A DNA stretch of 22,825 nucleotides from UHGV virus genome UHGV-0073937. One strand, written 5' to 3'. A model generated the notes under the pieces. The model ran no database searches, was not told the origin of the DNA, and saw only the letters and a list, made by a program, of their open reading frames with translations. This document shows, in pieces, positions 2,100 through 18,591 of the stretch. This DNA comes from a virus. The stretch's first letter is position 1, and the number at the start of each line of letters is the position of its first letter. Made by a program: the position numbers and the translations under genes.

Positions 2100-2447
2100 G
2101 GATTATTTTTAGTGCTGAATGTGAAATTTAAATAAAAAGGACTCTTCCATGAGTCAAAATCCTTGAAATCTTAAGGGTAAGATAAAAGGTCATTAGACAG
2201 AATGACACGTTTTATTAATAAATAAAGCTATTGTTTCATTCGTGTGTTTTTCTTTACAAAAGTAATCCTTGCTATGGTTGGTTAATCATGCGTTAATGGT
2301 GTTCTGGTTTGTTACAAAATTATCTGAAGCAGTCATTGTTATAATTTTATTATTTGTACCTCTTGAGATTTCCTTGTTGGTTTTTCTCTCTGATATTTTT
2401 TTCGGACCATTCTGCCCAAGGGCTAACTTCTTCAAAAGGTAATAATG
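2100..2447 (+). promoter_or_regulatory. AT-rich promoter and long 5' leader of the cold-shock gene
   Basis: ~350 bp AT-rich non-coding stretch directly upstream of csp ORF, consistent with long csp-family 5' UTRs; no explicit -35/-10 assigned. Confidence 0.35.
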
Positions 2448-2660
2448 ATGTCTAACAAAATGACTGGTTTAGTGAAATGGTTTAACCCTGAAAAAGGTTT
2501 TGGTTTCATCACGCCGAAAGATGGTAGCAAAGATGTGTTTGTCCATTTCTCAGCTATTCAGAGCAACGATTTCAAAACGTTAACTGAGAATCAGCAAGTC
2601 GAATTTGGTATTGAGAACGGACCTAAAGGCCCCGCGGCTGTTCATGTAGTGGCACTTTGA
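2448..2660 (+). CDS. cspI: Cold-shock protein, CspI-like (CspA family, prophage-encoded)
   Basis: 70 aa [38 protein letters not shown]...; RNP1 motif KGFGFI and RNP2-like VFVHF; SD AAAAGG 7 nt upstream. Confidence 0.9.
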
Positions 2661-2865
2661 GGTAGAAAATATTACAAACCATATTCACTTTAGATGCCCG
2701 TGTTGCCATGGTTCTCAGTATAGAACATCATCTTTTGATGTTTCTGACAGGAATCCTTTCGGGGCAAAATGTATCTTTTGTAAATCAATGATGATTACAT
2801 TTGATAATATTTCACAATACTTAAATGTTAGCCGTCTGTCGTTAGATTTAAGAAAGTGAAAATGA

Positions 2866-7289: not shown

Positions 7290-7479
7290 ACTGCAGGCGC
7301 TGCGTCAGGCGCGCCTTGATTTATTAACCGGTAAACGGGTGGTGTCTGTCCAGAAAGATGGTCGCAGAATTGAATATACGGCTGCTTCTCTGGATGAGCT
7401 TAACCGGGCGATCAATGATGCGGAGTCGGTACTGGGGACAACCCGACGTCGCCGTCGTCCGCTGGGAGTGAGGTTATGA
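7273..7479 (+). CDS. W: Head-tail joining protein, lambda gpW-like
   Basis: 68 aa; LLTGKRVVSVQKDGRRIEYTAASL resembles lambda W; overlaps terL end and portal start as in lambda. Confidence 0.8.
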   Translation: MVTVAELQALRQARLDLLTGKRVVSVQKDGRRIEYTAASLDELNRAINDAESVLGTTRRRRRPLGVRL

Positions 7480-8348
7480 AACGAACGCCTGTCCTGATTG
7501 ATGTGAACGGTGTTCCGCTTCGTGAGAGTCTCAGCTACAACGGTGGCGGCGCAGGATTTGGCGGGCAAATGGCGGAGTGGTTGCCACCGGCGCAGAGTGC
7601 CGATGCGGCCCTGCTGCCCGCGTTGCGTCTGGGGAATGCCCGGGCAGATGATCTGGTGCGCAATAACGGAATAGCGGCTAATGCGGTTGCCCTGCATAAG
7701 GATCACATTGTCGGGCATATGTTTCTGATCAGCTACCGTCCGAACTGGCGCTGGCTGGGGATGCGGGAGACCGCAGCAAAAAGCTTTGTCGATGAGGTGG
7801 AGGCGGCCTGGTCGGAATACGCCGAAGGGATGTTTGGCGAGATCGACGTGGAAGGAAAACGCACGTTCACGGAATTTATCCGTGAAGGTGTGGGCGTTCA
7901 TGCGTTTAACGGCGAAATCTTTGTGCAGCCGGTCTGGGATACAGAAACCACGCAGTTATTCCGTACGCGTTTTAAAGCTGTGAGTCCGAAACGGGTGGAC
8001 ACGCCTGGACACGGTATGGGGAACCGTTTTCTGCGGGCCGGTGTGGAGGTCGATCGATATGGCCGTGCCGTCGCGTACCATATCTGTGAGGATGATTTTC
8101 CGTTCTCTGGTAGTGGACGATGGGAACGGATCCCGCGTGAACTTCCCACCGGGCGTCCGGCCATGCTGCATATTTTCGAGCCGGTGGAGGACGGGCAGAC
8201 CCGTGGGGCTAATCAGTTTTACAGCGTCATGGAACGGCTGAAGATGCTCGATTCCCTGCAGGCAACACAGCTTCAGTCGGCCATAGTGAAGGCGATTTAT
8301 GTCTATCATCTCACCGTAGTTGCCCGCATCGTTCGCCAACTCCACTGA
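7476..8348 (+). pseudogene. B: Portal protein (lambda gpB-like) N-terminal fragment, truncated by island insertion at ~8301
   Basis: First ~275 codons collinear with lambda gpB (GNARADDLVRNNG, FEPVEDGQTRGAN, QSAIVKA); after codon AIY the frame reads into unrelated sequence and stops at 8348. Confidence 0.85.
8289..8301. repeat. Left copy of 13-bp imperfect direct repeat (AAGGCGATTTATG) = putative att core (attL)
   Basis: Matches AAGGCGATGTATG at 18579-18591 (12/13); both copies lie exactly at the breakpoint in the portal reading frame. Confidence 0.65.
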
Positions 8349-8424
8349 AACCCTTGCTGCGTCTGGAATGTCGTTTTCCATACTTTTGATGACCGTTCAT
8401 CACCCTTCCAGTTTTTCGCGGTTT

Positions 8425-8478
8425 TGTGTATTGCAATGTGTATTGCAAATTGGCGATCGGGATGGGTGTGTATTGCAA
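8425..8478. repeat. Three copies of TGTGTATTGCAA (candidate integrase arm-type binding sites) upstream of int
   Basis: Perfect 12-mers at 8425-8436, 8437-8448, 8467-8478; two related copies (GTGTATTGCA) at 18483-18506 near other island end. Confidence 0.55.
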
Positions 8479-8496
8479 ATCTCTTGAGGGCTTTTA

Positions 8497-9738
8497 ATGG
8501 CTATTGAAAACAAACTCAGTGACAAACTGTTAAAGAGTCTTGTCGGAAAACGGCAGGACAAACAAAAAACAATAGCGGATGGGCGCGGGTTGTCTGTGCG
8601 TGTAAGCATGGTTGGGGGGATCAGCTTTGTTTTTTACTATCGTCTTGGTGGCAGGGAATCCCCTCCGGTATGGCTTACACTTGGTCGCTATCCTGACATG
8701 TCTCTTGCAACGGCCAGGCGCATGCGTGATCAGTGCCGTGAATGGCTGGCTGAAAATCTGGACCCCCGCAGGCAAATAAAACTTGCTGCCGAAAAAACTA
8801 TGCAACCAGTGACCGTAAGGGATGCGCTGTTTTACTGGTACGACAATCACGCCACAACAGCCAGAAAAGAGCATGAATATTTAATAAAACGATTTGAAAA
8901 GCATATCTTCCCCTATATCGGTGATATGGCTATAGAACAGTGCAAATTACACACATGGCTTACCGTCTTTGACAGGATCAAAAAAAATGCGCCTGTTATG
9001 TCTGGTGCAATTTTTCTTGATATCAAACAGGCGTTGCGTTTTTGTCGCGTCAGGCAATACATCGCGTGCGATCCCTTTGGAGATATTAACGTAAGTTATG
9101 TCGGGGGCTCATCCGGTATAAGGGATCGCGTTCTTAATATCAATGAAACCGCTGATGTATGGTCTTATGCTTACGGTAATAATTTGCTAACTCTGTCATC
9201 AATATATAACCGAAGAATAATGGTTATCTGCCTGGTGTTTGGTTGCCGACAGCAGGAGGCGAGGCTATCCACCTGGGACGAATGGGATTTAAAAAACTGG
9301 GTATGGACAGTCCCAAAAGAGCACAGCAAAAACAAGGAGGCTATAGTAAGGCCTGTTCCTGACGGAATAAAACAATGGATCGTTAATCTTTACGCAGAAA
9401 CAAAAAATCGCGGTTATGTTGTCGGTTGTGCTTTGCAAAGGGCGACAATAACAGGGGCTGCAAACAGAATATGCAGGCGTCTTGGTCATGATACTAATGG
9501 CTTGTGGTGCATACATGATTTCAGGCGCACATTTTCCACTACGCTTAATGATATGGGGGCGGATCCTTATATTGTCGAACTTCTTTTAGGTCATAAAGTG
9601 AAAGGGGTTGCTGGTGTTTACAATAAAAGCAGGCATATAAAGAAAAAACTTGAGGTGCTTAATATGTGGGTTAATTACCTTAATACGATAGCAGGATTTA
9701 ACAACAACGTTATCGAGCTTAATAAAGAGGTGGTGTGA
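8497..9738 (+). CDS. int: Tyrosine recombinase / integrase, P4-type
   Basis: 413 aa; N-terminal arm-binding-like region (GRGLSVRVS...GGISFVFYYR); C-terminal catalytic region with HDFRRTFST...LLGH...GVYNKS; adjacent to island boundary. Confidence 0.9.
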   Translation: MAIENKLSDKLLKSLVGKRQDKQKTIADGRGLSVRVSMVGGISFVFYYRLGGRESPPVWLTLGRYPDMSLATARRMRDQCREWLAENLDPRRQIKLAAEKTMQPVTVRDALFYWYDNHATTARKEHEYLIKRFEKHIFPYIGDMAIEQCKLHTWLTVFDRIKKNAPVMSGAIFLDIKQALRFCRVRQYIACDPFGDINVSYVGGSSGIRDRVLNINETADVWSYAYGNNLLTLSSIYNRRIMVICLVFGCRQQEARLSTWDEWDLKNWVWTVPKEHSKNKEAIVRPVPDGIKQWIVNLYAETKNRGYVVGCALQRATITGAANRICRRLGHDTNGLWCIHDFRRTFSTTLNDMGADPYIVELLLGHKVKGVAGVYNKSRHIKKKLEVLNMWVNYLNTIAGFNNNVIELNKEVV

Positions 9739-9739
9739 T

Positions 9740-9997
9740 ATGGCAATTTATTCTCTTGTTGATGAAAACGATTTGCGCACAATGAAGGACATTGATCGGT
9801 TCATTCGTGAAAAAGAGTGCATAGCACTTACCACGCTGGCAAACTCAACACGCTGGAAAATGGAGCAGGCAGGTAAATTCCCGCGACGTATCAAGATCGG
9901 TGAACGTGCTGCAGGGTATCGACTTTCAGAGGTTCAGGCATGGATCCGTGGTGAGTGGCATCCTGGATGGAAACCTGGAAAAACAAAACAGCAATAA
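9740..9997 (+). CDS. alpA: AlpA-family transcriptional regulator / excisionase-like protein
   Basis: 85 aa; HTH region IALTTLANSTRWKMEQAGKFPRRIKIGERAAGYRLSEVQAWI resembles AlpA/HTH_17; start ATG overlaps int stop (coupled). Confidence 0.7.
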   Translation: MAIYSLVDENDLRTMKDIDRFIREKECIALTTLANSTRWKMEQAGKFPRRIKIGERAAGYRLSEVQAWIRGEWHPGWKPGKTKQQ

Positions 9998-10010
9998 CCA
10001 GTAAATAATG

Positions 10011-10033
10011 CCCCTCATCACGAGGGGTTTTTT
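10011..10033 (+). terminator. Rho-independent terminator (CCCCTC-ATCAC-GAGGGG + T6)
   Basis: Perfect 6-bp GC stem then TTTTTTG immediately after alpA stop. Confidence 0.7.
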
Positions 10034-10053
10034 GTCTATAAGGTAAAAACGCG

Positions 10054-10632
10054 ATGAATAAAAATATTGCCGTGACGGGCAAGGGGTACGCTCGTCCAGT
10101 GAAAAAATTCTGCGATATTCGTGATCTCGTCGTTCTGCGCTTTGATAGTGTGAACGTTCGTGTGGTGTATCTGAACGGCGATCCGTGGTTTGTTGCAAAA
10201 GATGTTTGTGCTGCGCTGGAACTAACCAATTCGCGTACGGCGTTGCAGATGCTTGATGATGATGAAAAGGGAGTAAATTTAACTTACACCCCAGGAGGAA
10301 ATCAGAATATGAGAATTATCTCTGAGTCAGGTTTCTACAAACTAATAGCCCGCAGCCGCAAAGCAACGACGCCTGGCACATTTGCTCATCGTTTCAGTAA
10401 CTGGGTATTCAGAAATGTGATACCAGGTATCAGAAAAACGGGGACTTATGGTATCCCGTGGGGTGCATTACAGGATTTTTCCCGCCGTAAAGAGCAATAT
10501 CAAATAAGTGCCAGCGAGAAGGGGAGAGAGCTACAGGCATGTAAGCGCAAAAAGCGTGAGCTGGAGGAAGAAGAAAAAACGCTGATACGTGAATATCAGC
10601 CTGAGTTTTACTTTGGTAACCGCATTCAGTGA
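10054..10632 (+). CDS. Bro-N domain protein (putative antirepressor-like)
   Basis: 192 aa; N-terminal region (VVYLNGDPWFVAKDVCAALELTNSRTALQMLDDDEKG...RIISESGFYKLIARSRKATT...FSNWVFRNVIP) typical of Bro-N; charged coiled C-terminus. Confidence 0.65.
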   Translation: MNKNIAVTGKGYARPVKKFCDIRDLVVLRFDSVNVRVVYLNGDPWFVAKDVCAALELTNSRTALQMLDDDEKGVNLTYTPGGNQNMRIISESGFYKLIARSRKATTPGTFAHRFSNWVFRNVIPGIRKTGTYGIPWGALQDFSRRKEQYQISASEKGRELQACKRKKRELEEEEKTLIREYQPEFYFGNRIQ

Positions 10633-10661
10633 CAAAACAAAGGCGACCGGGGGCGGTCGCC
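10630..10661 (-). terminator. Hairpin terminator for leftward small-gene operon (GGCGACCG-GGGG-CGGTCGCC; T-rich on minus strand)
   Basis: 8-bp perfect GC-rich stem; minus-strand downstream sequence TTTGTTTTGTC; sits between convergent genes. Confidence 0.55.
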
Positions 10662-10725
10662 AGTGGGAAAACACTAAACATAAGCACGAGGATGATAGCC
10701 GCTATCAGGTTGGTGGGCAATGTGA

Positions 10726-10935
10726 TCAGCCTGGTGGGCGGTTCCTGTTAGCTTTCATTACCCGGGGCTGTTTATTGAGAAACTCATCAAGCGCAAATTT
10801 TGTAGGCGCTGGTTCTGTATTTGGTGGCATTTGTTTAGCGTGTGCCTTTTCTTTCTGGCGTGCAACAATGCTCTGTAAAAGCAATCTTCGTTGTTCTGCG
10901 AAAATCTCTTCAGTGGATAGGTATTTTTTGCTCAT
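10726..10935 (-). CDS. Hypothetical small protein (leftward switch operon, second gene)
   Basis: 69-aa ORF downstream of 10993..11172 on same strand, followed by hairpin terminator. Confidence 0.45.
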   Translation of the reverse strand: MSKKYLSTEEIFAEQRRLLLQSIVARQKEKAHAKQMPPNTEPAPTKFALDEFLNKQPRVMKANRNRPPG

Positions 10936-10992
10936 AGTGCCGACCTGTAAAGCAATGCGCCGGAGTACCTCACACCACAGCGCTGATAGTGA

Positions 10993-11172
10993 TTATTCTT
11001 GCTCTTTAGCCTTGCGTCGCTGGCGGTATTCAACTTCTCGCTTTAATGCTGCTGTTACAAACTGCCCTGTACTTTCACCAGGCATTTTTACCGCCTCAAC
11101 ATTGTTCATAACTTCATGCGGAACCCTTGCCGCAACTGTTTGTGATTTTGCGTTTACTGCTTTTGTCGCCAT
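10993..11172 (-). CDS. Small putative DNA-binding regulator (possible RHH-type repressor), first gene of leftward operon
   Basis: 59-aa ORF derived by manual translation (below ORF-track size cut-off): MATKAVNAKSQTVAARVPHEVMNNVEAVKMPGESTGQFVTAALKREVEYRQRRKAKEQE; diverges from operator repeats. Confidence 0.45.
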   Translation of the reverse strand: MATKAVNAKSQTVAARVPHEVMNNVEAVKMPGESTGQFVTAALKREVEYRQRRKAKEQE

Positions 11173-11222
11173 GTTGTGTACCCCTCACAAAAAACAAATG
11201 CAGTATGCAGGAAAAAAAACAA

Positions 11223-11274
11223 GTGTTCAACACTTGACGTGTTCAACACCTGGGTTTAAATTGGTGTTCAACAC
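11223..11274. promoter_or_regulatory. Operator/promoter region: three perfect copies of near-palindromic 11-mer GTGTTCAACAC with candidate rightward sigma70 promoter
   Basis: Copies at 11223-11233, 11239-11249, 11264-11274; TTGACG (11234-11239) and TTTAAAT (11255-11261) fit -35/-10 with ~16-nt spacer; lies between divergent operons. Confidence 0.65.
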
Positions 11275-11371
11275 CTTGTTGGTGCAAGGTGCAGAAACGA
11301 CGAAACCCGGCAGTGCGCTAACACTAACCGGGCTTCTAACCACCAACGATAGCAACAGTATCGAGGTAGCT

Positions 11372-11575
11372 ATGAGAAATCATACCACACACCCGCAAGG
11401 GCGGGGCTCGCACAACCTGAATAAATACATCTGGCGTTTTATCGCCCTGAGCACCGCACAACCACGCGTAATACACATCGAGGCCGCCAGCGAACAGGAA
11501 GCCCGGCTGCAATCCCCAACTGGCTGCGTGATGATATTCGCCGCCCGTATTCGTCAGGAGGTATGCCGTGCTTAA
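11372..11575 (+). CDS. Small protein, first gene of rightward operon (possibly Icd-like)
   Basis: 67 aa from ATG 11372 with SD GAGG; MRNHTTHPQGRGSHNLNKYIWRFIALSTAQPRVIHIEAASEQEARLQSPTGCVMIFAARIRQE; family assignment from memory only. Confidence 0.45.
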   Translation: MRNHTTHPQGRGSHNLNKYIWRFIALSTAQPRVIHIEAASEQEARLQSPTGCVMIFAARIRQEVCRA

Positions 11576-11753
11576 AACCTTTCGTGTATTTGCTCGTGCG
11601 GTTAACCCACTAGGCCACACAATTGGTATCGCTCAGAACGTGAAGGCTGTTAATGTTCAGACGGCTATTGCTGCGGTGAGAAGCGAATCATCAGAATATG
11701 GCTTATCACAAGTCATTATCTCAGCAGTGTATGAATTAAAAGAGGTGCATTAA
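11568..11753 (+). CDS. Hypothetical protein
   Basis: 61-aa ORF; start overlaps upstream stop (coupled), part of tightly packed operon. Confidence 0.4.
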   Translation: MLKTFRVFARAVNPLGHTIGIAQNVKAVNVQTAIAAVRSESSEYGLSQVIISAVYELKEVH

Positions 11754-11944
11754 TGCAGGAAATTACATTACACGAAGCCGCTGAACGTGCGCACCAGACA
11801 GAAATTGTTTGCCGCCTTCTTGAGTTATACCCGAACAAAATTACAGATGCTGATATATCCGCGCTGGCGAGCCTACTGGCGCGCCTTTCGGGAAGTGTCG
11901 CTAGTTTCCTGATTGAGGAAGAAAGTAAGCTGGTGGGGGATTAA
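11753..11944 (+). CDS. Hypothetical protein
   Basis: 63-aa ORF; ATG overlaps previous stop (TAATG). Confidence 0.4.
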   Translation: MQEITLHEAAERAHQTEIVCRLLELYPNKITDADISALASLLARLSGSVASFLIEEESKLVGD

Positions 11945-12166
11945 ATGAATACAGAACGAGAAGTCTTTTTTAAATTGTTAGCATGTGCAGAGAGTTCATT
12001 AACTTTAAATAATTCAGCAAAAGCAATATTAAATATGTGGCTTGATTGCATAAATGACAATGAAGATGCAAATATTGCTTATGGCCTGTTGTCACTTATT
12101 GATGAAGCAGCAGAGAAACTTAATGACACAATAAATAGTGCCCTGCTATCAAATAAGTCGAGTTAA
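11945..12166 (+). CDS. Hypothetical protein
   Basis: 73-aa ORF; start overlaps previous stop; AT-rich codon usage suggests separate origin. Confidence 0.4.
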   Translation: MNTEREVFFKLLACAESSLTLNNSAKAILNMWLDCINDNEDANIAYGLLSLIDEAAEKLNDTINSALLSNKSS

Positions 12167-12183
12167 GTCGAAGAATAAATAAT

Positions 12184-12483
12184 ATGGAAATGAAAAATTC
12201 TGGCTTTATTGCCAGCGGCCCCGCTCGGCCTGAATTTATGAACGGCGATATTTACCGCGATAAATACGGCGGCACGGTAACGATTAAAGGCGTGGCAGAA
12301 CGGCGCATCACTTACCGCCGTGAGGGGTATAGCTATGACTGCGTGATGCCTGTTTATCAGTTCCGGCGTGATTTTTCCCTGGTATATGCCGCACCCCGCA
12401 GTAAGCCCATCAGCAGGGAAAAAGCGCGGGGAAACATCCAGAAAATGAAAAGCATGATTAACGCATTCAGGGGCAAAAAATGA
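12184..12483 (+). CDS. Hypothetical protein
   Basis: 99-aa ORF; stop overlaps start of replication protein (ATGA). Confidence 0.45.
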   Translation: MEMKNSGFIASGPARPEFMNGDIYRDKYGGTVTIKGVAERRITYRREGYSYDCVMPVYQFRRDFSLVYAAPRSKPISREKARGNIQKMKSMINAFRGKK

Positions 12484-14231
12484 AACTGGCACCGAACTTA
12501 AAAAAACAGCCACGCGACAGACTGACAGAGGTAATCATCTTTGCAGGTAGTGATGCGTGGAGCCATGCGAAAGAGTGGCAGGAATGGGCGGGTAAACATA
12601 TTGCCGCCGACGATGTGCCGCCTGTCGTGCTGGCTGATGAGCAACTGAAAAACATCACCGATTACCGGATCATTGATGAAGATCGTCAGTGTGTGCGTGT
12701 TTACCGCGCAGGACATATCACAGAGCACAGCATGACGCAGATTGTTACGTTACTGGCTGTGGCTGGAGTGAAGACCGTACACGAATACGCGGGGATTACT
12801 GACACCAGCCCAGTGGATTTATCCGACCAGTTGCCGCGACTCAAAGAGGAATGCGAGCGTGGGGAAAGTCTGGTGCTTAATCTTCCGACGAAGCAAAAGG
12901 CGCAACTTTCACAGATGGCAGACAGTGAACGTGCACAACTACTTGCCGATCGCTTTGATGGTGTGTGTGTTCATGCAGAAAGTGAAATCGTCCACGTATG
13001 GCGCGGCGGGGTATGGTGTCCGGTCAGCACAATGGAGCTGAGCCGCGAAATGGTGGCGATCTATTCAGAGCACAGGGCCACGTTCAGCAAACGTGTAATC
13101 AATAACGCCGTGGAAGCGTTAAAAGTTATTGCCGACCCCATGGGGGAGCCGTCCAGTGATTTGCTACCGTTCACTAATGGTGTGCTTAACCTGAAAACGG
13201 GAGAATTTTCTCCGCACTCGCCGGAGCACTGGAGCACCACGCACAATGGCATTGAGTACACGCCACCAGTAGCAGGGGAAAACATCCGCGATAATGCGCC
13301 AAATTTCCATAAATGGCTTGAACATGCTGCAGGAAAAGACCCGCGCAAGATGATGCGTATATGTGCCGCGTTATACATGATTATGGCGAACCGCTACGAC
13401 TGGCAGATGTTCATTGAGGCCACCGGAGACGGGGGAAGCGGAAAGAGCACATTTACCCATATTGCCACCCTGCTTGCTGGCAAACAGAACACCGTAAGCG
13501 CAGAGATGACATCACTCGATGATGCAGGTGGGCGCGCGCAGGTTGTCGGGAGTCGTCTTATCGTCCTTGCCGATCAGCCGAAATATACGGGTGAAGGCAC
13601 TGGCATCAAGAAAATCACGGGAGGCGATCCCGTCGAAATTAACCCGAAATATGAGAAGCGATTCACGACGATAATAAGGGCGGTGGTACTGGCGACCAAT
13701 AACGACCCTATGATCTTTACCGAACGGGCCGGAGGTGTGTCACGCCGTCGGGTGATTTTCCGGTTCGACAACATTGTAAGGGAGGACGAAAAAGACAAGG
13801 AATTACCGGAAAAGATAGCGGCAGAAATCCCCGTAATTATCCGCCGCTTGCTGGCTAACTTTGCTGACCCTGAAAAGGCACGAGCTTTACTACTGGAACA
13901 GCGAGACGGTGATGAAGCTCTGGCAATAAAGCAGCAAACGGATCCGGTTGTTGAGCTTTGCGCGGCGCTGGAGTTTCTGGAGGAAGCTCGTGGGCTAATG
14001 ATGGGCGGTGGTGGTGACTCCGTGAAGTACACGACCAGAAACAGCCTTTACCGTGTCTATATGGCCTTCATGGCATACACAGGAAAGGGGAAATGTTTGA
14101 GCGTGAATGAGTTCGGAAAGGCTATGAGGTCAGCGGCGAAAGTTTACGGATATGAATATATTACTCGAAAAGTTAAGGGAGTCACGCAGACCAACGCAAC
14201 GACTACTGATGATTGCGATGCGTTTTTATAA
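12480..14231 (+). CDS. Replication protein: primase C-terminal/D5-N domain with SF3-type P-loop NTPase (pri-rep-like)
   Basis: 583 aa; Walker A GDGGSGKST, downstream Walker B-like RLIVLADQ; architecture typical of P4-alpha/PICI pri-rep proteins; followed by iterons. Confidence 0.8.
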   Translation: MKLAPNLKKQPRDRLTEVIIFAGSDAWSHAKEWQEWAGKHIAADDVPPVVLADEQLKNITDYRIIDEDRQCVRVYRAGHITEHSMTQIVTLLAVAGVKTVHEYAGITDTSPVDLSDQLPRLKEECERGESLVLNLPTKQKAQLSQMADSERAQLLADRFDGVCVHAESEIVHVWRGGVWCPVSTMELSREMVAIYSEHRATFSKRVINNAVEALKVIADPMGEPSSDLLPFTNGVLNLKTGEFSPHSPEHWSTTHNGIEYTPPVAGENIRDNAPNFHKWLEHAAGKDPRKMMRICAALYMIMANRYDWQMFIEATGDGGSGKSTFTHIATLLAGKQNTVSAEMTSLDDAGGRAQVVGSRLIVLADQPKYTGEGTGIKKITGGDPVEINPKYEKRFTTIIRAVVLATNNDPMIFTERAGGVSRRRVIFRFDNIVREDEKDKELPEKIAAEIPVIIRRLLANFADPEKARALLLEQRDGDEALAIKQQTDPVVELCAALEFLEEARGLMMGGGGDSVKYTTRNSLYRVYMAFMAYTGKGKCLSVNEFGKAMRSAAKVYGYEYITRKVKGVTQTNATTTDDCDAFL

Positions 14232-14239
14232 AAAATGGC

Positions 14240-14480
14240 AATGGTTATCTACCTTGTCTACCTGACTGAAAGAAAATACTTTTATTTCAATGTATTAATG
14301 CAGGTAGATAACTATTTTTCACTGTCTACCTGTTATCTACCTTATCTACCCATTTTTGTAGACAGGTAAGGAGACGGGTAGAGATGAGGTAGACAGCTAT
14401 TTGGGGCTGTCTACCTCCCTGAAACCCGCGCCATTACTGGCCTGATAACTAATCAGGTAGACAAGGTAGACAAGGTGGTG
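14240..14480. repeat. Iteron array (>=10 copies of GGTAGACA / TATCTACC in both orientations) = putative origin of replication
   Basis: e.g. TTATCTACCTTGTCTACC, CAGGTAGATAAC, CTGTCTACCTGTTATCTACCTTATCTACC, GGTAGACAAGGTAGACAAGG; non-coding, directly downstream of rep gene. Confidence 0.75.
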
Positions 14481-14520
14481 GCGCACAAAAAACTTTTTAA
14501 ACGAGGGGGTAAAAATAAAA

Positions 14521-14778
14521 ATGCACACATCAGGAAAACTGAACAAACATATAAAGCCACATTATCGCGCCCTTGATATGGCTGAACACTGGCTAAGGGT
14601 GGCGATTAAGGCAATAGACCGCAACGCCGGGGAAGGATACGCGAAAGCACATCCCGAACTGATAAGCGCATTCATGACAACGGCGGCTGCAAACTTTGCC
14701 GCGCTGACCGAACGGGAGATTGCCGAAGCGGAGGAAGTGACAACCATCAATATTAAGTCCGGAGAGCAGGCAGCTTGA
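14521..14778 (+). CDS. Hypothetical protein
   Basis: 85-aa ORF; stop overlaps SSB start. Confidence 0.45.
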   Translation: MHTSGKLNKHIKPHYRALDMAEHWLRVAIKAIDRNAGEGYAKAHPELISAFMTTAAANFAALTEREIAEAEEVTTINIKSGEQAA

Positions 14779-15224
14779 CGGCGCAAATAGCAGCTTACGG
14801 GCGGCTGGTGGACGACCCACAGGTAAAACATACCAGCAAGGGAGCACCCATGACACTGGCACGGATGACGGTATCTTTGCCATGCAGCCAGGCAGATGAC
14901 GGAACGGCGACGATGTGGTTATCTGTCCTGGCGTTTGGCAGACAAGCCGACGCGCTGGCAAAGCATCACAAAGGCGAACTCCTGAGCGTGGCGGGTAATA
15001 TGCAGGTGAGCCAGTGGAGCGGACAGAACGGGGAAACGCGGCAGGGCTGGCAGGTTATCGCAGACAGCGTAATCAGTGCCAGAACGGTGCGACCGGGCGG
15101 CAAAAAAGGTCAACAGGGGCAGGCTACTGATGCACTGAACAGAGCAAAACAACAGGCAGATCAGCAAGGAAGCCATCCACCAGTGGGAGATAATGAGCAA
15201 TGGGGAGATGATATTCCGTTTTAA
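14775..15224 (+). CDS. ssb: Single-stranded DNA-binding protein homologue (SSB-like, TTG start)
   Basis: 149 aa; OB-fold-like N-terminus; Gln/Gly-rich linker; C-terminal acidic tip GDDIPF matching the SSB DDDIPF tail; SD GGAGAG 8 nt upstream of TTG. Confidence 0.75.
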   Translation: MTAQIAAYGRLVDDPQVKHTSKGAPMTLARMTVSLPCSQADDGTATMWLSVLAFGRQADALAKHHKGELLSVAGNMQVSQWSGQNGETRQGWQVIADSVISARTVRPGGKKGQQGQATDALNRAKQQADQQGSHPPVGDNEQWGDDIPF

Positions 15225-15243
15225 ATTCTGCAAACAAAAAGAT

Positions 15244-15268
15244 GCCGGAAAAAAATAGATTTTCCGGC
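15244..15268. terminator. Hairpin (GCCGGAAAA...TTTTCCGGC), possible terminator after ssb
   Basis: 9-bp inverted repeat; T-run better on minus strand so orientation ambiguous. Confidence 0.4.
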
Positions 15269-15435
15269 ATGCTACATAAATCCCGACCAAAGGAAGTAAA
15301 TACATTAACACGAATTATCAGCACTGAAGTTGTCACGGCATATTTTATACAACATTGCACTTGGTTGCATGTATTCGCATAGCAGACATCGGTAATAGAA
15401 TATATTCACAATTATTTGTAATGAATGTAAAGAGG

Positions 15436-16482
15436 ATGAGTATGGTTGATTTATATTCGCCTACACAGCTTGTGCAGGTGGCTAATGCTGAAGATGTGCA
15501 AAAAAAATTAAATGCGTTGTTTACCAGTTTGTTTTTCACTCGCTCGGTAATGTTTGAATCGAGAGACATTATTCTTGATACGATCGACGATCCAAATATC
15601 CCGATCGCGGCGTTTTGCTCTCCTATGGTGGGCAGTAAAGTTTCACGAGATGAGGGATACGAATCAAAAACAATTCGCCCTGGCTATATGAAACCGAAAA
15701 GCAGCATTGATCCAAATAAGTTAGCTGTGCGCCCTGCTGGTGTATCACCTGAACAATACAATGCTTTTGGGGCGCGTAATATTAAAGTTAAACAGGCGAT
15801 TGTAAATCAGGCTAAAGCTATACGTGCACGTATTGAATGGCTTGCTGTTCAGGCAATCACAACGGGGAAAAATATCATTGAGGGCGATGGTATTGAACGT
15901 TATGAACTGGACTGGAATATAAAACCACAAAATATTATCACGCAGTCTGGCGGTGCTGAGTGGTCAGGTAAGGATAAAGAAACTTTTGATCCAAATGATG
16001 ATATTGAGAGCTACGCAGAATTTAGTGAGGGCGTCACTAATATCATCATTATGGGCGGTAATGTATGGAAGAAATACCGTTCATTCAGAGCGATAAAAGA
16101 GGCTCTGGATACCCGCCGTGGTTCTAATTCCGAACTGGAAACGGCCCTTAAAGACCTTGGTGATTCGGTGAGTTTTAAAGGGTATATGGGCGATGTTGCG
16201 ATTGTTGTTTACAGCGGACGTTATACCGACGAGGACGGAACTGAAAAACATTTCCTTGATCCTGATTTGATGGTGCTTGGCAATACGGCTCTTCAGGGGA
16301 TTGTCGCCTATGGCGGTATTCAGGATCCGGAGCTAATCCGAATGGGGCTGACTAAAGCCGAACTTGCACCGAAAAACTATATTGTGCCTGGTGATCCGGC
16401 TATTGAATATGTGCAGACACATTCAGCACCACAGCCAATACCGGCCCGCATCAATCGTTTTGTTACCGTTCGCATTGGCTAA
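15436..16482 (+). CDS. Major capsid protein, divergent lambda gpE homologue (island-encoded)
   Basis: 348 aa; collinear similarity with lambda E across C-terminal two-thirds (NIITQSGGAEWSGKDKETFDPNDDIE, DTRRGSNSELETALKDLG, YMGDVAIVVYSG, LMVLGNTA, VPGDPAIE); start MSMVDLY parallels lambda MSMYTTA; start could be 15442. Confidence 0.85.
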   Translation: MSMVDLYSPTQLVQVANAEDVQKKLNALFTSLFFTRSVMFESRDIILDTIDDPNIPIAAFCSPMVGSKVSRDEGYESKTIRPGYMKPKSSIDPNKLAVRPAGVSPEQYNAFGARNIKVKQAIVNQAKAIRARIEWLAVQAITTGKNIIEGDGIERYELDWNIKPQNIITQSGGAEWSGKDKETFDPNDDIESYAEFSEGVTNIIIMGGNVWKKYRSFRAIKEALDTRRGSNSELETALKDLGDSVSFKGYMGDVAIVVYSGRYTDEDGTEKHFLDPDLMVLGNTALQGIVAYGGIQDPELIRMGLTKAELAPKNYIVPGDPAIEYVQTHSAPQPIPARINRFVTVRIG

Positions 16483-16491
16483 GGGGGAGCA

Positions 16492-16833
16492 ATGGCTACT
16501 CATTACACTGAACTCATGGCTGGCACTGAAGCACTGGTGACTACGCTGGGGATATTTTCAGCTAATAAAGGGGTAATTCCTGCATTTACGCCACTGATGC
16601 AGGAAGATGCAACAGGTGCACTGGTGGTATGGGATGGTTCGAGCGTAGGTAAAGCGGTTTATGTTTCCGCTGTACAAATCGACACAGCGAAAAAAACACA
16701 GGCACAGGTTTATAAGACAGGTGTTTTAAATGTTGATGCTCTGAACTGGCCTGAGTCTGTAAAAGAACTGTCGGCAAAGGTTGCCGCGTTTGTTGGCTCA
16801 GGTATTTCTGTTCAGCCGCTGGCTCGTGTGTAA
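16492..16833 (+). CDS. Head decoration protein, divergent lambda gpD homologue (island-encoded)
   Basis: 113 aa; VVWDGSSVGKAVYVSAVQIDT...YKTGVLNVDALNWPES parallels lambda [22 protein letters not shown]...[16 protein letters not shown]; strong SD AAGGGGGAG. Confidence 0.75.
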   Translation: MATHYTELMAGTEALVTTLGIFSANKGVIPAFTPLMQEDATGALVVWDGSSVGKAVYVSAVQIDTAKKTQAQVYKTGVLNVDALNWPESVKELSAKVAAFVGSGISVQPLARV

Positions 16834-16844
16834 AGGGGGATACA

Positions 16845-17228
16845 ATGCAGAATCATTACAATGACCTTAAGCCAATTGCCGAAATGATGTATCCGGATCC
16901 AGCAGTAGAGGAATTAAAGGCTATTGCTGACAAAATGCGTTTAAGTGAACGCCTTGTTGATATGAATCAGGTGATGGAACTTACTACCCTTAGCCGTCGC
17001 ACATTGCTAAACCTTGAGGCTCGCGGAGAGTTCCCCGAACGCGTACAGGTTACGGAAGGGCGTAAGGCCTGGTATTTAAGTGAAGTGATCGACTGGATAA
17101 ACAATATTCCTCGATCTTCTGAATATTGCCGCGTACCTGTCCCAAAAAAGCCAGATGCGGCGCTATGCCTCAAGATTGAGCGTGTACGTCGCAATGCACG
17201 GGATGGTCGCTATAAGTTGATTGGTTGA
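16845..17228 (+). CDS. AlpA-like HTH domain protein immediately upstream of island cos
   Basis: 127 aa; central HTH resembling AlpA/HTH_17 (MNQVMELTTLSRRTLLNLEARGEFPERVQVTEGRKAWYLSEVIDWI); strong SD. Confidence 0.55.
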   Translation: MQNHYNDLKPIAEMMYPDPAVEELKAIADKMRLSERLVDMNQVMELTTLSRRTLLNLEARGEFPERVQVTEGRKAWYLSEVIDWINNIPRSSEYCRVPVPKKPDAALCLKIERVRRNARDGRYKLIG

Positions 17229-17254
17229 TGAAATTAGGGCCCGTTCTGGCTGGC

Positions 17255-17330
17255 GGGTCCTTTCCGGCGATCCGGTAGGCTACGGGGCGGCGACCTTGCG
17301 GGTTTTCGCTATTTATGAGCCTTTTTCGGG
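17255..17330 (+). other. cos: Lambda-type cos site 2 (island cos): cosN GGGCGGCGACCT at 17285-17296
   Basis: ~65 bp (17255-17319) near-identical to 4625-4688 including cosQ/cosN; downstream cosB-equivalent sequence differs from cos 1. Confidence 0.8.
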
Positions 17331-17429
17331 TGCTGGTGGTGGTTTTGTTGTTCGCTCTATCTCTATGAATAAAAAGGAAAAGATAAAGCCAATACACCAA
17401 CCTGAAACATTACTTAAGTGGGGATATTG

Positions 17430-17972
17430 ATGAAATCGCACCTGATGAACAAAAAAAACATGGCGCAAAGCTGCCGTGTAAGTGCGACAGCGTTCGACAA
17501 GTGGGGAGTGACTCCCGTTGAACGTAAAGGCCGCGAGGCGTTTTATGATGTTGCCAGCGTAATAGACAATCGGGTTAGCAATGCAATTAACCAGATTACA
17601 GACGACAAAGGCGAGATTGATGATGATGAACTCCTACGAGTCAGGATCAGATTGCTGACAGCACAGGCAGAGGCGCAGGAGCTTAAAAACGAGCGCGAAC
17701 GCGGCGACGTTATTGATACAGCGTTTTGTATATACGTGCTTTCAAAATTGGCGAGTCAGATTTCTTCAATCATGGACAGCCTGCCGCTTGCCATGACAAG
17801 GAAGTTTCCCGACATGAAGCCGTCTATGCTGGATGGACTGAAAAAAGAAGTTATCAGAGCCTGTAACGCATGCGCAAAACTTGACGAAAACATACCGCTG
17901 ATGCTGTCCGATTATCTGATGGAAACTGCCGGAAACGTACCGGATAAGTTGCAGCCGAATAAAGATAAGTAA
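17430..17972 (+). CDS. Terminase small subunit, divergent Nu1-like (island-encoded)
   Basis: 180 aa from ATG 17430; homologous to 4883..5389 product and lambda Nu1 (ATAFDKWGVTPVERKGREAFYDV; AFCIYVLSKLASQISSIMDSLPLAMTRKFPDM) but clearly divergent. Confidence 0.85.
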   Translation: MKSHLMNKKNMAQSCRVSATAFDKWGVTPVERKGREAFYDVASVIDNRVSNAINQITDDKGEIDDDELLRVRIRLLTAQAEAQELKNERERGDVIDTAFCIYVLSKLASQISSIMDSLPLAMTRKFPDMKPSMLDGLKKEVIRACNACAKLDENIPLMLSDYLMETAGNVPDKLQPNKDK

Positions 17973-17983
17973 CGTAGTACGCT

Positions 17984-18286
17984 ATGACTGAATCCGAAAT
18001 ACTGCGATTAATCCGCCGTGCTTGTGGAATCAGCAAGCAGCATGACGAACAGGCCACGCAGCCGGACAGCGTGACCGCAGATAATTATGTGCGTGTAGTG
18101 GCTGAGGTGATGCGCCGTGACGGTATTGAGCTTAACGGCGTGGATATGCGCAACATACGAACAAGAGTCCTTGAGTTGCTGGCATATCGTCGCCGTAATG
18201 ATGATTCAGCCCACCAGCCAAATCAGCACAGCAACGACAGAATAGCCCGACACAGAAAAACCACGAATATGGGGTTTTTGTTATGA
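17984..18286 (+). CDS. Hypothetical protein (last island gene)
   Basis: 100-aa ORF; Arg-rich; no recognised motif. Confidence 0.4.
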   Translation: MTESEILRLIRRACGISKQHDEQATQPDSVTADNYVRVVAEVMRRDGIELNGVDMRNIRTRVLELLAYRRRNDDSAHQPNQHSNDRIARHRKTTNMGFLL

Positions 18287-18482
18287 CATGGTCATGATGA
18301 CCACTCATACAAAACAGGTAAAGCCCACCAGCCTGATTAAAGGTTAACCGGAAAAAAGCCAGGTATCCAATCTCGATATGGGGATCCCTATATCGACATT
18401 AACGCCCACTAAAACTGTGCATATATGCATAGAAAAAGCATCCACCAGCTTTATGACGGATGCCGCTCATCTTATAAATAAT

Positions 18483-18506
18483 CGTGTATTGCAGTGTGTA
18501 TTGCGA
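18483..18506. repeat. Two copies of GTGTATTGCA-type repeat near right island end (candidate arm sites)
   Basis: CGTGTATTGCAGTGTGTATTGCGA; same motif as 8425-8478. Confidence 0.5.
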
Positions 18507-18578
18507 CTCCTTTAAACGATAGGTCTGAGCATTCGTAATGTACTGTTTTTAAATTTTATTTTTTCCTGTCTTTTCATA

Positions 18579-18591
18579 AAGGCGATGTATG
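18579..18591. repeat. Right copy of 13-bp direct repeat (AAGGCGATGTATG) = putative att core (attR)
   Basis: 12/13 match to 8289-8301; portal reading frame (KAMYAATIESEL) resumes exactly here. Confidence 0.65.

What the first reader, a model, noticed from the sequence alone, without database searches (positions are those of the whole stretch)
14231..14490. Dense iteron array downstream of the replication gene (putative island origin)
At least ten copies of GGTAGACA / TATCTACC-type 8-mers in both orientations occupy the ~250-bp non-coding gap just after the primase-C/SF3-helicase-type rep gene. This is the classic organisation of PICI and P4-type replicons and supports autonomous replication of the excised island.
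Basis: seen in the sequence. Interest (0 to 1): 0.5.

Follow-up and report, generated by a model that had tools for sequence, protein, structure and literature searches.

The report
Replication origin of a phage satellite
The repeat cluster is real and is almost certainly the replication origin of a small phage-parasitic island (a PICI) embedded in a lambda-like prophage; it is a close copy of an origin already tested in E. coli CFT073, so it is ordinary.

Summary
Observation confirmed. GGTAGAYA occurs 10 times exactly, plus 2 one-mismatch copies, six on each strand. All lie in 14246-14472, inside the 289-bp gap after the rep gene; 0.57 copies are expected in the whole window.

Interpretation supported. 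The gap is the homologue of the EcCICFT073 origin, which is required in cis for Pri-Rep-driven plasmid replication (PMC6092414). The repeat core and the site offsets match.

- **Geometry:** five of six site pairs are mirror-placed about 14359. A 40-bp AT-rich stretch (14263-14302), locally the least stable DNA, separates opposed sites.
- **Rep protein:** it is an SF3 helicase. Its C-terminus matches the phage P4 alpha origin-binding winged helix (1KA8, E=3e-7).
- **Relatives:** all 70 unique related loci carry an array directly after rep. The repeat sequence changes with the Rep C-terminal domain and not with its N-terminal domain.
- **Link to P4:** all variants fit GGT-NNN-CA, as does the P4 type I iteron, and the right half-array has the site order of P4 ori.

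The island (about 8289-18591) is a helper-embedded PICI sitting in a prophage portal gene, which is a published kind of element. Verdict: new member of a known kind, low interest. Rep binding and origin firing are inferred, not shown, for this allele.

The parts
12480..14231 (+). rep (Pri-Rep type, 583 aa). It has an N-terminal Toprim-like domain (1-127), D5_N (152-282), an SF3 P-loop helicase (DUF5906, 315-416) and a C-terminal winged-helix origin-binding domain (about 487-578).
14246..14262 (-). Outer left iteron pair: TATCTACC and TGTCTACC, 9 bp start to start.
   Evidence: Same offsets (17-, 26-) in EcCICFT073 and in all E. coli-type relatives.
14263..14302 (.). AT-rich spacer, the candidate DNA-unwinding element.
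   Evidence: GC content is 20-22%. The least stable 25-mer within +/-500 bp starts at 14275 (dG -24.1 against a mean of -33.5, sd 3.4). The same place is least stable in EcCICFT073.
14303..14330 (.). Inverted iteron pair 1: GGTAGATA, 12 bp, TGTCTACC.
   Evidence: D1, I25.
14334..14350 (-). Inner left iteron pair: TATCTACC twice.
   Evidence: D3.
14357..14384 (+). Two degenerate inner right iterons: TGTAGACA at 14357 and GGTAGAGA at 14377.
   Evidence: The 14377 site is mirror partner of 14334.
14388..14415 (.). Inverted iteron pair 2: GGTAGACA, 12 bp, TGTCTACC.
   Evidence: D1, I8.
14419..14441 (.). Conserved non-iteron block CTGAAACCCGCGCCATTACTGG in the GC-rich right spacer. Function unknown.
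   Evidence: Nearly invariant across 45 unique E. coli-type gaps. No Rfam hit and no promoter-like site.
14456..14472 (+). Outer right iteron pair: GGTAGACA twice, 9 bp start to start. It is the mirror image of the left pair.
   Evidence: I2: 21-nt arms, 95% complementary.
14490..14519 (+). Conserved AAAACTTTTTAAAC tract followed by the ribosome-binding site (GAGGGGG) of the next ORF.
   Evidence: Invariant in 45 gaps. An A-run/T-run also follows the terminal iteron pair in P4 crr.
14521..14778 (+). ORF85 (phrog_1231, unknown function), the first gene after the origin.
   Evidence: Conserved after the origin in E. coli PICIs but replaced by other ORFs in distant relatives.
14775..15224 (+). 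Single-stranded DNA-binding protein, part of the replication module.
   Evidence: Pfam SSB and TIGR00621.
12184..12483 (+). DUF4222 gene overlapping the rep start codon. It sits upstream of rep in every E. coli relative that was annotated.
8289..18591 (+). The whole island, about 10.3 kb. attL core AAGGCGATTTATG (8289-8301) and attR core AAGGCGATGTATG (18579-18591). Genes: int 8497-9738, alpA-like 9740-9997, Bro-N, rep module, capsid 15355-16482, decoration 16492-16833, second AlpA-like HTH 16845-17228, terS 17418-17972.
   Evidence: The interrupted prophage portal gene is 7476-8348 and resumes at 18579.

Best explanation
The array is the replication origin (ori) of a Gram-negative PICI satellite of the EcCICFT073 type. 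Here the satellite is embedded in the portal gene of a lambdoid helper prophage.

Proposed mechanism. The island's own Rep is an SF3 helicase-initiator. Its C-terminal winged-helix domain binds the 12 GGTAGAYA sites. The sites are laid out as two mirror-image half-arrays: an outer pair, a ~40-bp spacer, an inverted pair with a 12-bp gap, and an inner pair. This layout would position two Rep hexamers in opposite orientation. The duplex opens at the AT-rich left spacer (14263-14302). The hexamers load themselves without a separate loader, and the island-encoded SSB coats the unwound strands. Priming probably depends on the host primase, because the Rep N-terminal Toprim-like domain lacks a zinc ribbon and the usual acidic motifs.

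What is shown here: the array, its geometry, its conservation, and homology of both the DNA and the protein to experimentally characterised systems.

What is inferred: Rep binding to these sites, the melting site, double-hexamer loading and the source of primers.
For: - **Enrichment:** 10 exact plus 2 near copies confined to 227 bp, against 0.57 expected in the whole window.
- **Homology to a tested origin:** the EcCICFT073 gap (L010:8996-9283) has GGTAGA cores at the same offsets as the window. CFT073: 17-, 26-, 72+, 94-, 105-, 114-, 145+, 156+, 178-, 224+, 233+. Window: 17-, 26-, 72+, 94-, 105-, 114-, 146+, 157+, 179-, 225+, 234+. That origin and its Rep are both required for plasmid replication (PMC6092414).
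- **Geometry:** five of six site pairs share one dyad centre at 14359 (arithmetic on the coordinates). The same holds in CFT073.
- **Unwinding element:** the AT-rich spacer is the local stability minimum in both elements. Sites on its two sides point in opposite directions, as described for SaPI origins (PMC9371898).
- **Rep C-terminus:** residues 487-578 match the P4 alpha origin-binding winged helix 1KA8 (E=3e-7). The helicase core matches SaPI5 PriRep5, 7OLA.
- **Always present:** in 70 unique related loci the 300 nt after rep holds a 7-mer repeated 5-11 times, against 2-3 times in control pieces inside rep.
- **Selective conservation:** across 45 unique E. coli-type gaps the GGTAGA core columns are 92.5% conserved, against 52% for the 3' flanking dinucleotide.
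- **Repeat type follows the C-terminal domain:** the types are GGTAGAYA, GGTAGAGG, GTGAACAG, ATGAACAC and GGTATACA. Natural chimeras L028 and L029 have an N-terminus 100% identical to the window's but a different C-terminus, and they carry GGTAGAGG repeats.
- **Wing residues:** among Reps of 626 residues, only two residues in the predicted wing (598, 601) plus the last residue separate GGTATACA-type from ATGAACAC-type arrays.
- **No competing signal:** the gap has no sigma-70-like promoter, no terminator, no Rfam family and no DnaA-box enrichment.
Against: - There is no experimental evidence for this allele. Its gap is only about 75-77% identical to the CFT073-type gap, and the Rep N-terminal domain is only 44-49% identical.
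- In the one helper-embedded relative that was induced (11capE), attP:attB was about 1 in two of three repeats and 1.6-1.9 in the third. That means little or no autonomous replication after excision (PMC10111431).
- Covariation between repeats and the Rep C-terminus is confounded by physical linkage, because the C-terminal coding sequence abuts the array.
- One locus (L045) combines a GGTAGAGG-type recognition-helix sequence with a GGTAGAYA array.
- The full-length Rep model was poor (mean pLDDT 45.5). Placement of residues on the recognition helix or the wing rests on the 1KA8 sequence alignment and on low-confidence secondary structure.
Confidence: 0.9

Rival explanations
1. The array binds Rep but acts as a crr-like accessory element rather than as the initiation site. 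It would serve as a cis enhancer, or as a copy-number or handcuffing element, as in phage P4. In P4 the iteron block directly after the alpha gene is crr, and the origin proper lies 4.5 kb away.
For: In P4 the region immediately downstream of alpha is crr: two 120-bp repeats, each with five type I iterons. The window array occupies the same position relative to rep.
Against: There is no second GGTAGAYA cluster anywhere in the island or in the window. A separate origin would therefore have no Rep sites. The right half-array has the site order of P4 ori itself. In EcCICFT073 rep plus this one region suffices for replication, and deleting the region reduces it (PMC6092414).
Confidence: 0.04
2. 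The array is an operator or promoter region. A transcription regulator of the island, such as one of its two AlpA-like proteins, would bind the repeats to control the downstream ORF85-SSB-capsid genes.
For: The array lies directly upstream of a co-oriented gene block. The island encodes two AlpA-like helix-turn-helix proteins.
Against: - There is no promoter-like or terminator-like site in the gap.
- In distant relatives the array stays with rep while the downstream gene changes.
- Repeat type tracks the Rep C-terminal domain.
- The repeats belong to the same GGT-NNN-CA family as the P4 iterons annotated in the P4 origin. [quoted passage not shown]
- The homologous CFT073 region functions as an origin.
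Confidence: 0.03
3. The array is an origin by descent but contributes little in this embedded configuration. The island would be copied passively as part of the helper prophage, and the array would persist mainly through recent descent.
For: 11capE showed little replication after excision. Relatives carry damaged replication genes: the SSB gene is frameshifted in L001 and an IS1 sits in the primase region of hit H5.
Against: - The core positions and the site geometry are conserved across many lineages and integration sites, while flanking bases drift.
- Rep, ORF85 and SSB are all intact in the window.
- 75 E. coli genomes carry the gap at 99% identity or more, which shows it is widespread but says little about selection.
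Confidence: 0.1

Closest known systems
EcCICFT073 pri-rep-ori module, the origin of Gram-negative PICIs (Fillol-Salom et al. 2018, PMC6092414)
   Same: - The gene order is the same: DUF4222, rep, gap, 85-aa ORF, SSB, capsid, decoration.
- The GGTAGA core, the 11 core offsets, the dyad layout and the AT-rich spacer all match.
- Rep is 93-95% identical over the D5_N and helicase region and 84% identical over the C-terminal domain.
   Different: - The gap is only about 75-77% identical.
- Flanking bases differ: AGGTAGAYAA here against RGGTAGAYAG in CFT073.
- The Rep N-terminal 150 residues are a different allele, 49% identical.
- This island has a different integrase and sits inside a prophage portal gene, not between roxA and phoQ. 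It also carries terS.
Helper-embedded PICIs (HE-PICI, e.g. 11capE; Mageeney et al. 2023, PMC10111431)
   Same: - The island is integrated inside, and co-oriented with, a lambdoid late gene.
- The doubled TGTATTGC motif lies near both att ends.
- A near-identical island (97% over 11306-18196) sits in a prophage capsid gene in E. coli N1420.
- The paper notes a primase gene and an origin downstream of it.
   Different: The paper does not dissect the origin. The insertion here is in a portal (lambda B cognate) gene at about codon 275. I did not check whether this equals one of the three published B:Phage_portal_2 sites.
Phage P4 ori and crr with the alpha protein
   Same: - The SF3 helicase core is homologous (71% DNA identity over 374 nt), as is the winged-helix origin-binding domain (1KA8).
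- The P4 type I iteron, read as GGTGAACA, differs from GGTAGACA at 2 of 8 positions. Serratia and Morganella relatives of this Rep use GTGAACAG and ATGAACAS.
- P4 crr lies immediately after alpha.
- P4 ori has the order 3(+), 1(-), spacer, 2(+), like window 14357-14472. An A-run/T-run follows the terminal pair in P4 crr and in the window.
   Different: - P4 needs two separated elements, ori and crr, 4.5 kb apart. Here there is one cluster.
- P4 alpha has a zinc-ribbon plus Toprim primase. This Rep has only a short Toprim-like domain with no Pfam primase hit.
- The octamer sequence differs.
SaPI origins and Rep (Ubeda et al. as cited in PMC9371898; structures 7OLA, 7PDS)
   Same: - The origin lies immediately downstream of rep.
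- It has 6-12 iterons around a central AT-rich region, with sites on the two sides pointing in opposite directions.
- Rep is a self-loading helicase that reads iterons through a C-terminal winged helix. The helicase core matches 7OLA at E=4e-15.
   Different: SaPI iterons are penta- or hexanucleotides of unrelated sequence in a Gram-positive host. In this array the AT-rich region is off-centre, occupying the left spacer only.

Membership tests
PICI replication origin (SaPI / Gram-negative PICI type) | Lies immediately 3' of the rep (pri-rep) gene. | tested here: met
   The rep stop codon ends at 14231 and the first iteron starts at 14246.
PICI replication origin (SaPI / Gram-negative PICI type) | Two sets of iterons flank an AT-rich region, with sites on the two sides in opposite orientation. 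| tested here: met
   Two minus-strand sites (14246, 14255), then a spacer at 20-22% GC (14263-14302), then a plus-strand site at 14303 followed by nine more sites. The definition is taken from PMC6092414 and PMC9371898.
PICI replication origin (SaPI / Gram-negative PICI type) | The cognate Rep is a helicase-initiator with a C-terminal winged-helix domain specific for the iterons. | tested here: inconclusive
   Homology to 1KA8 and 7OLA was found. Repeat type covaries with the C-terminal domain in relatives, with one exception (L045). Binding itself cannot be tested with these tools.
PICI replication origin (SaPI / Gram-negative PICI type) | A rep-ori fragment drives autonomous replication, and deleting the origin abolishes or reduces it. 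| not testable with these tools
   Shown only for the homologue EcCICFT073 (PMC6092414).
Gram-negative PICI (EcCICFT073 type) | Unidirectional int, alpA, pri-rep, ori and packaging or capsid genes, about 10-20 kb, flanked by att repeats. | tested here: met
   int 8497-9738, alpA-like 9740-9997, rep 12480-14231, capsid, decoration and terS 15355-17972, all on the plus strand. The att cores are at 8289-8301 and 18579-18591, giving about 10.3 kb.
Helper-embedded PICI (HE-PICI) | [quoted passage not shown] | tested here: met
   The portal N-terminal ORF is 7476-8348 and the C-terminal part resumes at 18579 (equivalent to L001 position 6894). Terminase genes lie upstream; protease, decoration and capsid genes lie downstream. 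All are on the plus strand.
Helper-embedded PICI (HE-PICI) | The doubled motif tgTGTATTGCantgTGTATTGCa occurs twice at fixed distances from the attP centre (81 and 132 bp, each +/-2). | tested here: inconclusive
   Doubled motifs are present at 18484-18504, about 90 bp before the attR core centre, and at 8426-8446, about 140 bp after the attL core centre. Presence is met. The distances agree only roughly, because the paper's reference points are not known to me.
Phage P4-type replicon | Type I iterons of sequence TGTTCACC. | tested here: not met
   Here the octamer is TRTCTACC, which differs at 2 of 8 positions. More distant relatives (L006, L080) do use CTGTTCAC.
Phage P4-type replicon | Two cis elements, ori and crr, separated by kilobases. 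| tested here: not met
   There is a single cluster and no other exact copy in the window.
Phage P4-type replicon | An alpha-type protein with a zinc-ribbon/Toprim primase, an SF3 helicase and a winged-helix domain. | tested here: inconclusive
   [not shown]

The most novel reading that the evidence does not exclude
The PICI origin and the P4 ori/crr may be one homologous origin design and not independent inventions. Four things point that way. The octamers all fit GGT-NNN-CA. The half-array grammar is shared: three sites, one inverted site, a ~40-bp spacer, two sites, then an A-run/T-run. The two half-arrays can be mirrored (this window), swapped in order (L073, L080) or separated by kilobases (P4). 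Specificity for the central trinucleotide appears to be set by as few as two residues in the wing of the Rep winged helix: N/A598 to T and M601 to V switch GGTATACA to GGTGTTCA. If so, origin specificity of satellites would be predictable and re-programmable from sequence.
Probability: 0.5. Interest if true: 0.35.

Novelty: new member of a known kind. Interest (0 to 1): 0.18.

Why it matters
The finding confirms that this embedded island keeps a complete replication module of its own: rep, origin, ORF85 and SSB. That marks it as a potentially mobile satellite and not a dead remnant. The general point, an iteron origin 3' of pri-rep in E. coli PICIs, was published in 2018, and helper-embedded PICIs were published in 2023. 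The origin as such therefore adds nothing new. The added value is descriptive. It gives a base-level map of the 12 sites with their exact dyad geometry. It gives comparative evidence that repeat type follows the Rep C-terminal domain. It also links the array to the P4 iteron family, which could guide incompatibility typing of satellites or the design of orthogonal Rep/origin pairs.

Tried and rejected
- **Chance or low complexity:** rejected.
- **Promoter or terminator in the gap:** none found.
- **Known RNA family in the gap:** none. The only hits were far below the gathering scores. The only window-wide hit is a cspA thermoregulator at 2291-2706.
- **DnaA boxes:** at chance level, with a single one-mismatch match in the gap.
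- **GTDB genome scan with Rep alone:** gave only 4 loci. The useful diversity came from an alignment-based scan of viral contigs.
- **The search for homologous proteins:** returned only E. coli proteins at 80% identity or more in the listed 120. They served as an alignment for structure prediction but not for covariation.
- **Full-length Rep structure prediction:** failed outside the N-terminal domain (mean pLDDT 45.5). No structural mapping of the winged helix was attempted.
- **Simple two-residue rule in the recognition helix** (N543A and G546S tracking GGTAGAYA against GGTAGAGG): it fits most loci but is contradicted by L045, so I do not claim it.
- **Phage collection search:** found only P4 alpha.
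- **Literature search for a published P4/PICI iteron homology:** none found in the searchable library. That library excludes most subscription journals.
Full report
**1. The observation**

The sequence between the rep stop codon (14229-14231) and the next start codon (14521) is a 289-bp gap. No ORF of 50 codons or more overlaps it on either strand.

GGTAGAYA matches exactly 10 times in the 22,825-bp window, and every match lies in 14246-14472. Dinucleotide-preserving shuffles give 0.57 matches on average, and never more than 4. With one mismatch allowed, two further copies appear inside the same stretch: TGTAGACA at 14357 and GGTAGAGA at 14377.

There are therefore 12 sites, six on each strand.

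**2. Anatomy of the array**

From left to right the array reads:
- two minus-strand sites (14246, 14255), 9 bp apart;
- a 40-bp AT-rich spacer (14263-14302);
- an inverted pair with a 12-bp gap (14303 plus, 14323 minus);
- two minus-strand sites (14334, 14343);
- three plus-strand sites (14357, 14377, 14388);
- the last of these forms a second inverted pair, again with a 12-bp gap, with 14408 minus;
- a ~40-bp GC-richer spacer;
- two plus-strand sites (14456, 14465), 9 bp apart.

Five of the six site pairs are placed exactly symmetrically about position 14359: 14246/14472, 14255/14463, 14303/14415, 14323/14395 and 14334/14384. This is arithmetic on the coordinates.

The two spacers are not symmetric in composition. 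The left spacer is 20-22% GC and the right one is about 55% GC. The left spacer contains the least stable 25-mer within 500 bp on either side: nearest-neighbour dG of -24.1, against a local mean of -33.5 with sd 3.4.

The gap contains no sigma-70-like promoter and no intrinsic terminator. It has no Rfam family, and DnaA boxes are at chance level.

**3. Context**

The upstream gene (12480-14231, 583 aa) has D5_N, DUF5906 (the SF3 P-loop) and Pox_D5 C-terminal Pfam hits. It also hits TIGR01613 'primase_Cterm'.

Against solved structures, residues 220-441 match SaPI5 PriRep5 (7OLA, E=4e-15). Residues 487-578 match the origin-binding winged-helix domain of phage P4 alpha (1KA8, E=3e-7). The identity of these two PDB entries is confirmed in PMC9371898 and PMC2777425.

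An 85-codon ORF of unknown function and an SSB gene lie downstream. A capsid gene, a decoration gene, an AlpA-like regulator and terS follow. An integrase, an AlpA-like gene and a Bro-N gene lie upstream.

The island runs from about 8289 to 18591. Its att cores are AAGGCGATTTATG and AAGGCGATGTATG. It interrupts the portal gene of a lambdoid prophage, whose terminase genes lie to the left and whose protease, decoration and capsid genes lie to the right.

This is the helper-embedded PICI configuration described by Mageeney et al. 2023 (PMC10111431). It includes their doubled TGTATTGC motif near both ends.

**4. Comparison with the tested origin**

EcCICFT073 lies between roxA and phoQ in E. coli CFT073 (locus L010). 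It has the same gene order around rep. Its 288-bp gap carries GGTAGA cores at offsets 17-, 26-, 72+, 94-, 105-, 114-, 145+, 156+, 178-, 224+ and 233+. The window has 17-, 26-, 72+, 94-, 105-, 114-, 146+, 157+, 179-, 225+ and 234+. CFT073 shows the same dyad placement and the same AT-rich stability minimum.

Fillol-Salom et al. [quoted passage not shown] They show that the EcCICFT073 rep-ori fragment maintains a temperature-sensitive plasmid, and that deleting rep or the origin impairs this (PMC6092414). The window's array is thus the homologue of an experimentally supported origin.

The window allele is widespread: 75 complete E. coli genomes carry the gap at 99% identity or more.

**5. Comparative evidence that the array is a Rep-binding site set**

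I collected 91 related loci from E. coli genomes, GTDB genomes and viral contigs. They give 70 unique combinations of gap and Rep C-terminus.

- **The array is always there.** In every locus the 300 nt after rep contains a 7-mer repeated 5-11 times (median 7). Control pieces of 300 nt inside rep give 2-3.
- **The core is selectively conserved.** Across 45 unique E. coli-type gaps the six core positions are 92.5% conserved and 49 of 66 columns are invariant. The two bases 3' of the core are only 52% conserved.
- **Repeat type follows the C-terminal domain.**
  - Window-type and CFT073-type Reps have GGTAGAYA.
  - A third E. coli type has GGTAGAGG or GGTAGAKG.
  - Relatives at 51-55% identity (Serratia, Morganella and uncultured contigs) have GTGAACAG, ATGAACAS or GGTATACA.
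- **Repeat type does not follow the N-terminal domain.**
  - The window and CFT073 types differ there (49% identity) but share GGTAGAYA.
  - L028 and L029 have an N-terminus identical to the window's but a type-3 C-terminus, and they carry GGTAGAGG repeats.
- **Two wing residues track a specificity switch.** In one group of 626-residue Reps there are 80 variable columns. Only residues 598 and 601, in the segment aligned with the winged-helix wing, plus the last residue, separate GGTATACA arrays from ATGAACAC arrays.
- **Caveats.**
  - The C-terminal coding sequence is physically adjacent to the array, so linkage alone would produce some covariation.
  - Locus L045 pairs a type-3 recognition-helix sequence with a GGTAGAYA array.

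**6. Relation to P4**

Read on one strand, the known variants are GGTAGACA (window), GGTGAACA (P4 type I, annotated in the P4 record), GGTATACA and GGTGTTCA. All fit GGT-NNN-CA.

In P4 the block immediately after the alpha gene is crr. P4 ori has the site order 3(+), 1(-), spacer, 2(+), with spacings of 10, 11, 22, 43 and 10. The window's right half (14357-14472) has spacings of 20, 11, 20, 48 and 9. An A-run/T-run follows the terminal pair in P4 crr and in the window. In relatives L073 and L080 the two half-arrays occur in the opposite order.

This suggests one modular origin design shared by P4 and Gram-negative PICIs.

The window differs from P4 in three ways. It has a single cluster. Its octamer differs. 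Its Rep lacks the zinc-ribbon and Toprim hits that P4 alpha and the Morganella relative show.

**7. The Rep N-terminal domain**

By inspection of the sequence, the canonical glutamate and DxD acidic motifs are not evident. Primase activity is therefore doubtful, and priming may depend on host DnaG. This is inference.

The full-length model was unusable outside this domain.

**8. Mechanism proposed**

Rep monomers bind the 12 sites through the C-terminal winged helix. The dyad layout, with two inverted pairs each spaced by 12 bp, positions two hexamers in opposite orientation. The AT-rich left spacer melts. The hexamers load themselves, as proposed for SaPI Reps (PMC9371898). The island's SSB stabilises the single strands.

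Shown here: the sites, their geometry, their conservation and the homologies. Inferred: binding, the melting site, double-hexamer loading and priming.

No promoter or terminator separates rep from the array, and the island is co-oriented with the helper's late genes. Transcription entering from the helper could therefore reach rep and cross the origin. Mageeney et al. already raise passive and active contributions to replication of the composite.

**9. Rivals**

- **A crr-like accessory role without initiation** is unlikely. There is no second cluster, and the CFT073 homologue suffices with Rep.
- **An operator role for a transcription regulator** is unlikely. The gap has no promoter signal, the array stays with rep while the downstream genes change, and repeat type tracks the Rep C-terminus.
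- **A functional-by-descent but little-used origin** remains possible. The helper-embedded relative 11capE replicated weakly, if at all, after excision.

**10. Verdict**

This is the origin of a PICI of a published type in a published configuration. It is a new member of a known kind and of low interest.

The modest new points are:
- the exact dyad geometry of the 12 sites;
- the evidence from natural chimeras and from the wing residues that the Rep C-terminal domain sets repeat specificity;
- the similarity to the P4 ori and crr grammar.

I did not find that similarity described in the searchable literature.

Noticed in passing
window 7476-8348 and 18579 onward; island about 8289-18591: The island interrupts the portal gene of a lambdoid prophage at about codon 275, and is co-oriented with it. 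A 97%-identical island sits in a prophage capsid gene in E. coli N1420 (L001). A relative sits in a terminase large-subunit gene in E. coli UTAK-5 (L013). This is the published helper-embedded PICI phenomenon (PMC10111431).
   Followed up: yes
window 8426-8446, 8466-8481 and 18484-18504: TGTATTGC repeats lie near both island ends, doubled at 8426 and 18484 and single at 8466. They match the HE-PICI 'doubled motif' proposed as an integrase arm or AlpA site. The extra single copy at 8466 is not mentioned in the paper text I read.
   Followed up: partly
[not shown]
   Followed up: partly
window 14419-14441 and 14490-14519: Two non-iteron blocks in the gap are nearly invariant across 45 unique E. 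coli-type gaps: CTGAAAsCCGCGCCATTACTGG and AAAACTTTTTAAACGAGGGGGTAAAAATAAA. An A-run/T-run in the same relative position occurs in P4 crr and in the Serratia and Morganella relatives. No function could be assigned.
   Followed up: partly
L073:4253-4560 and L080:4274-4560: In these relatives the two half-arrays follow rep in the opposite order: the '3+1, spacer, 2' half comes first and the '2, AT-rich, inverted pair' half comes second. The halves therefore behave as separable modules.
   Followed up: partly
L082, L084, L086, L087 (300 nt after rep): These arrays mix two repeat types, with six GGTATACA sites and two or three ATGAACAS sites. They may be intermediates in a specificity switch. The corresponding Reps carry the GGTATACA-type wing residues.
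   Followed up: partly
L045 (300 nt after rep): This locus pairs a Rep with the type-3 helix sequence NVAEFSKAM with a CFT073-type GGTAGAYA array. It is either a recent recombinant at the rep/ori boundary or evidence that the two types cross-recognise.
   Followed up: no
window 2291-2706 (+): An Rfam cspA thermoregulator hit (113.7 bits against a gathering score of 78) overlaps a 71-codon ORF at 2445-2660. This looks like a cold-shock-protein gene with its 5' UTR, to the left of the prophage terminase genes.
   Followed up: no
L001:15776-16224 and hit H5 (NZ_AP022177.1): Some otherwise near-identical islands have damaged replication genes. The SSB gene is frameshifted in E. coli N1420, and an IS1 lies in the primase region in strain WP7-S17-ESBL-04. 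The window's copies of both genes are intact.
   Followed up: no
window 16845-17228 and 9740-9997: The island encodes two AlpA/excisionase-like proteins (both phrog_2790). One lies next to int and a second, longer one lies between the decoration gene and terS.
   Followed up: no
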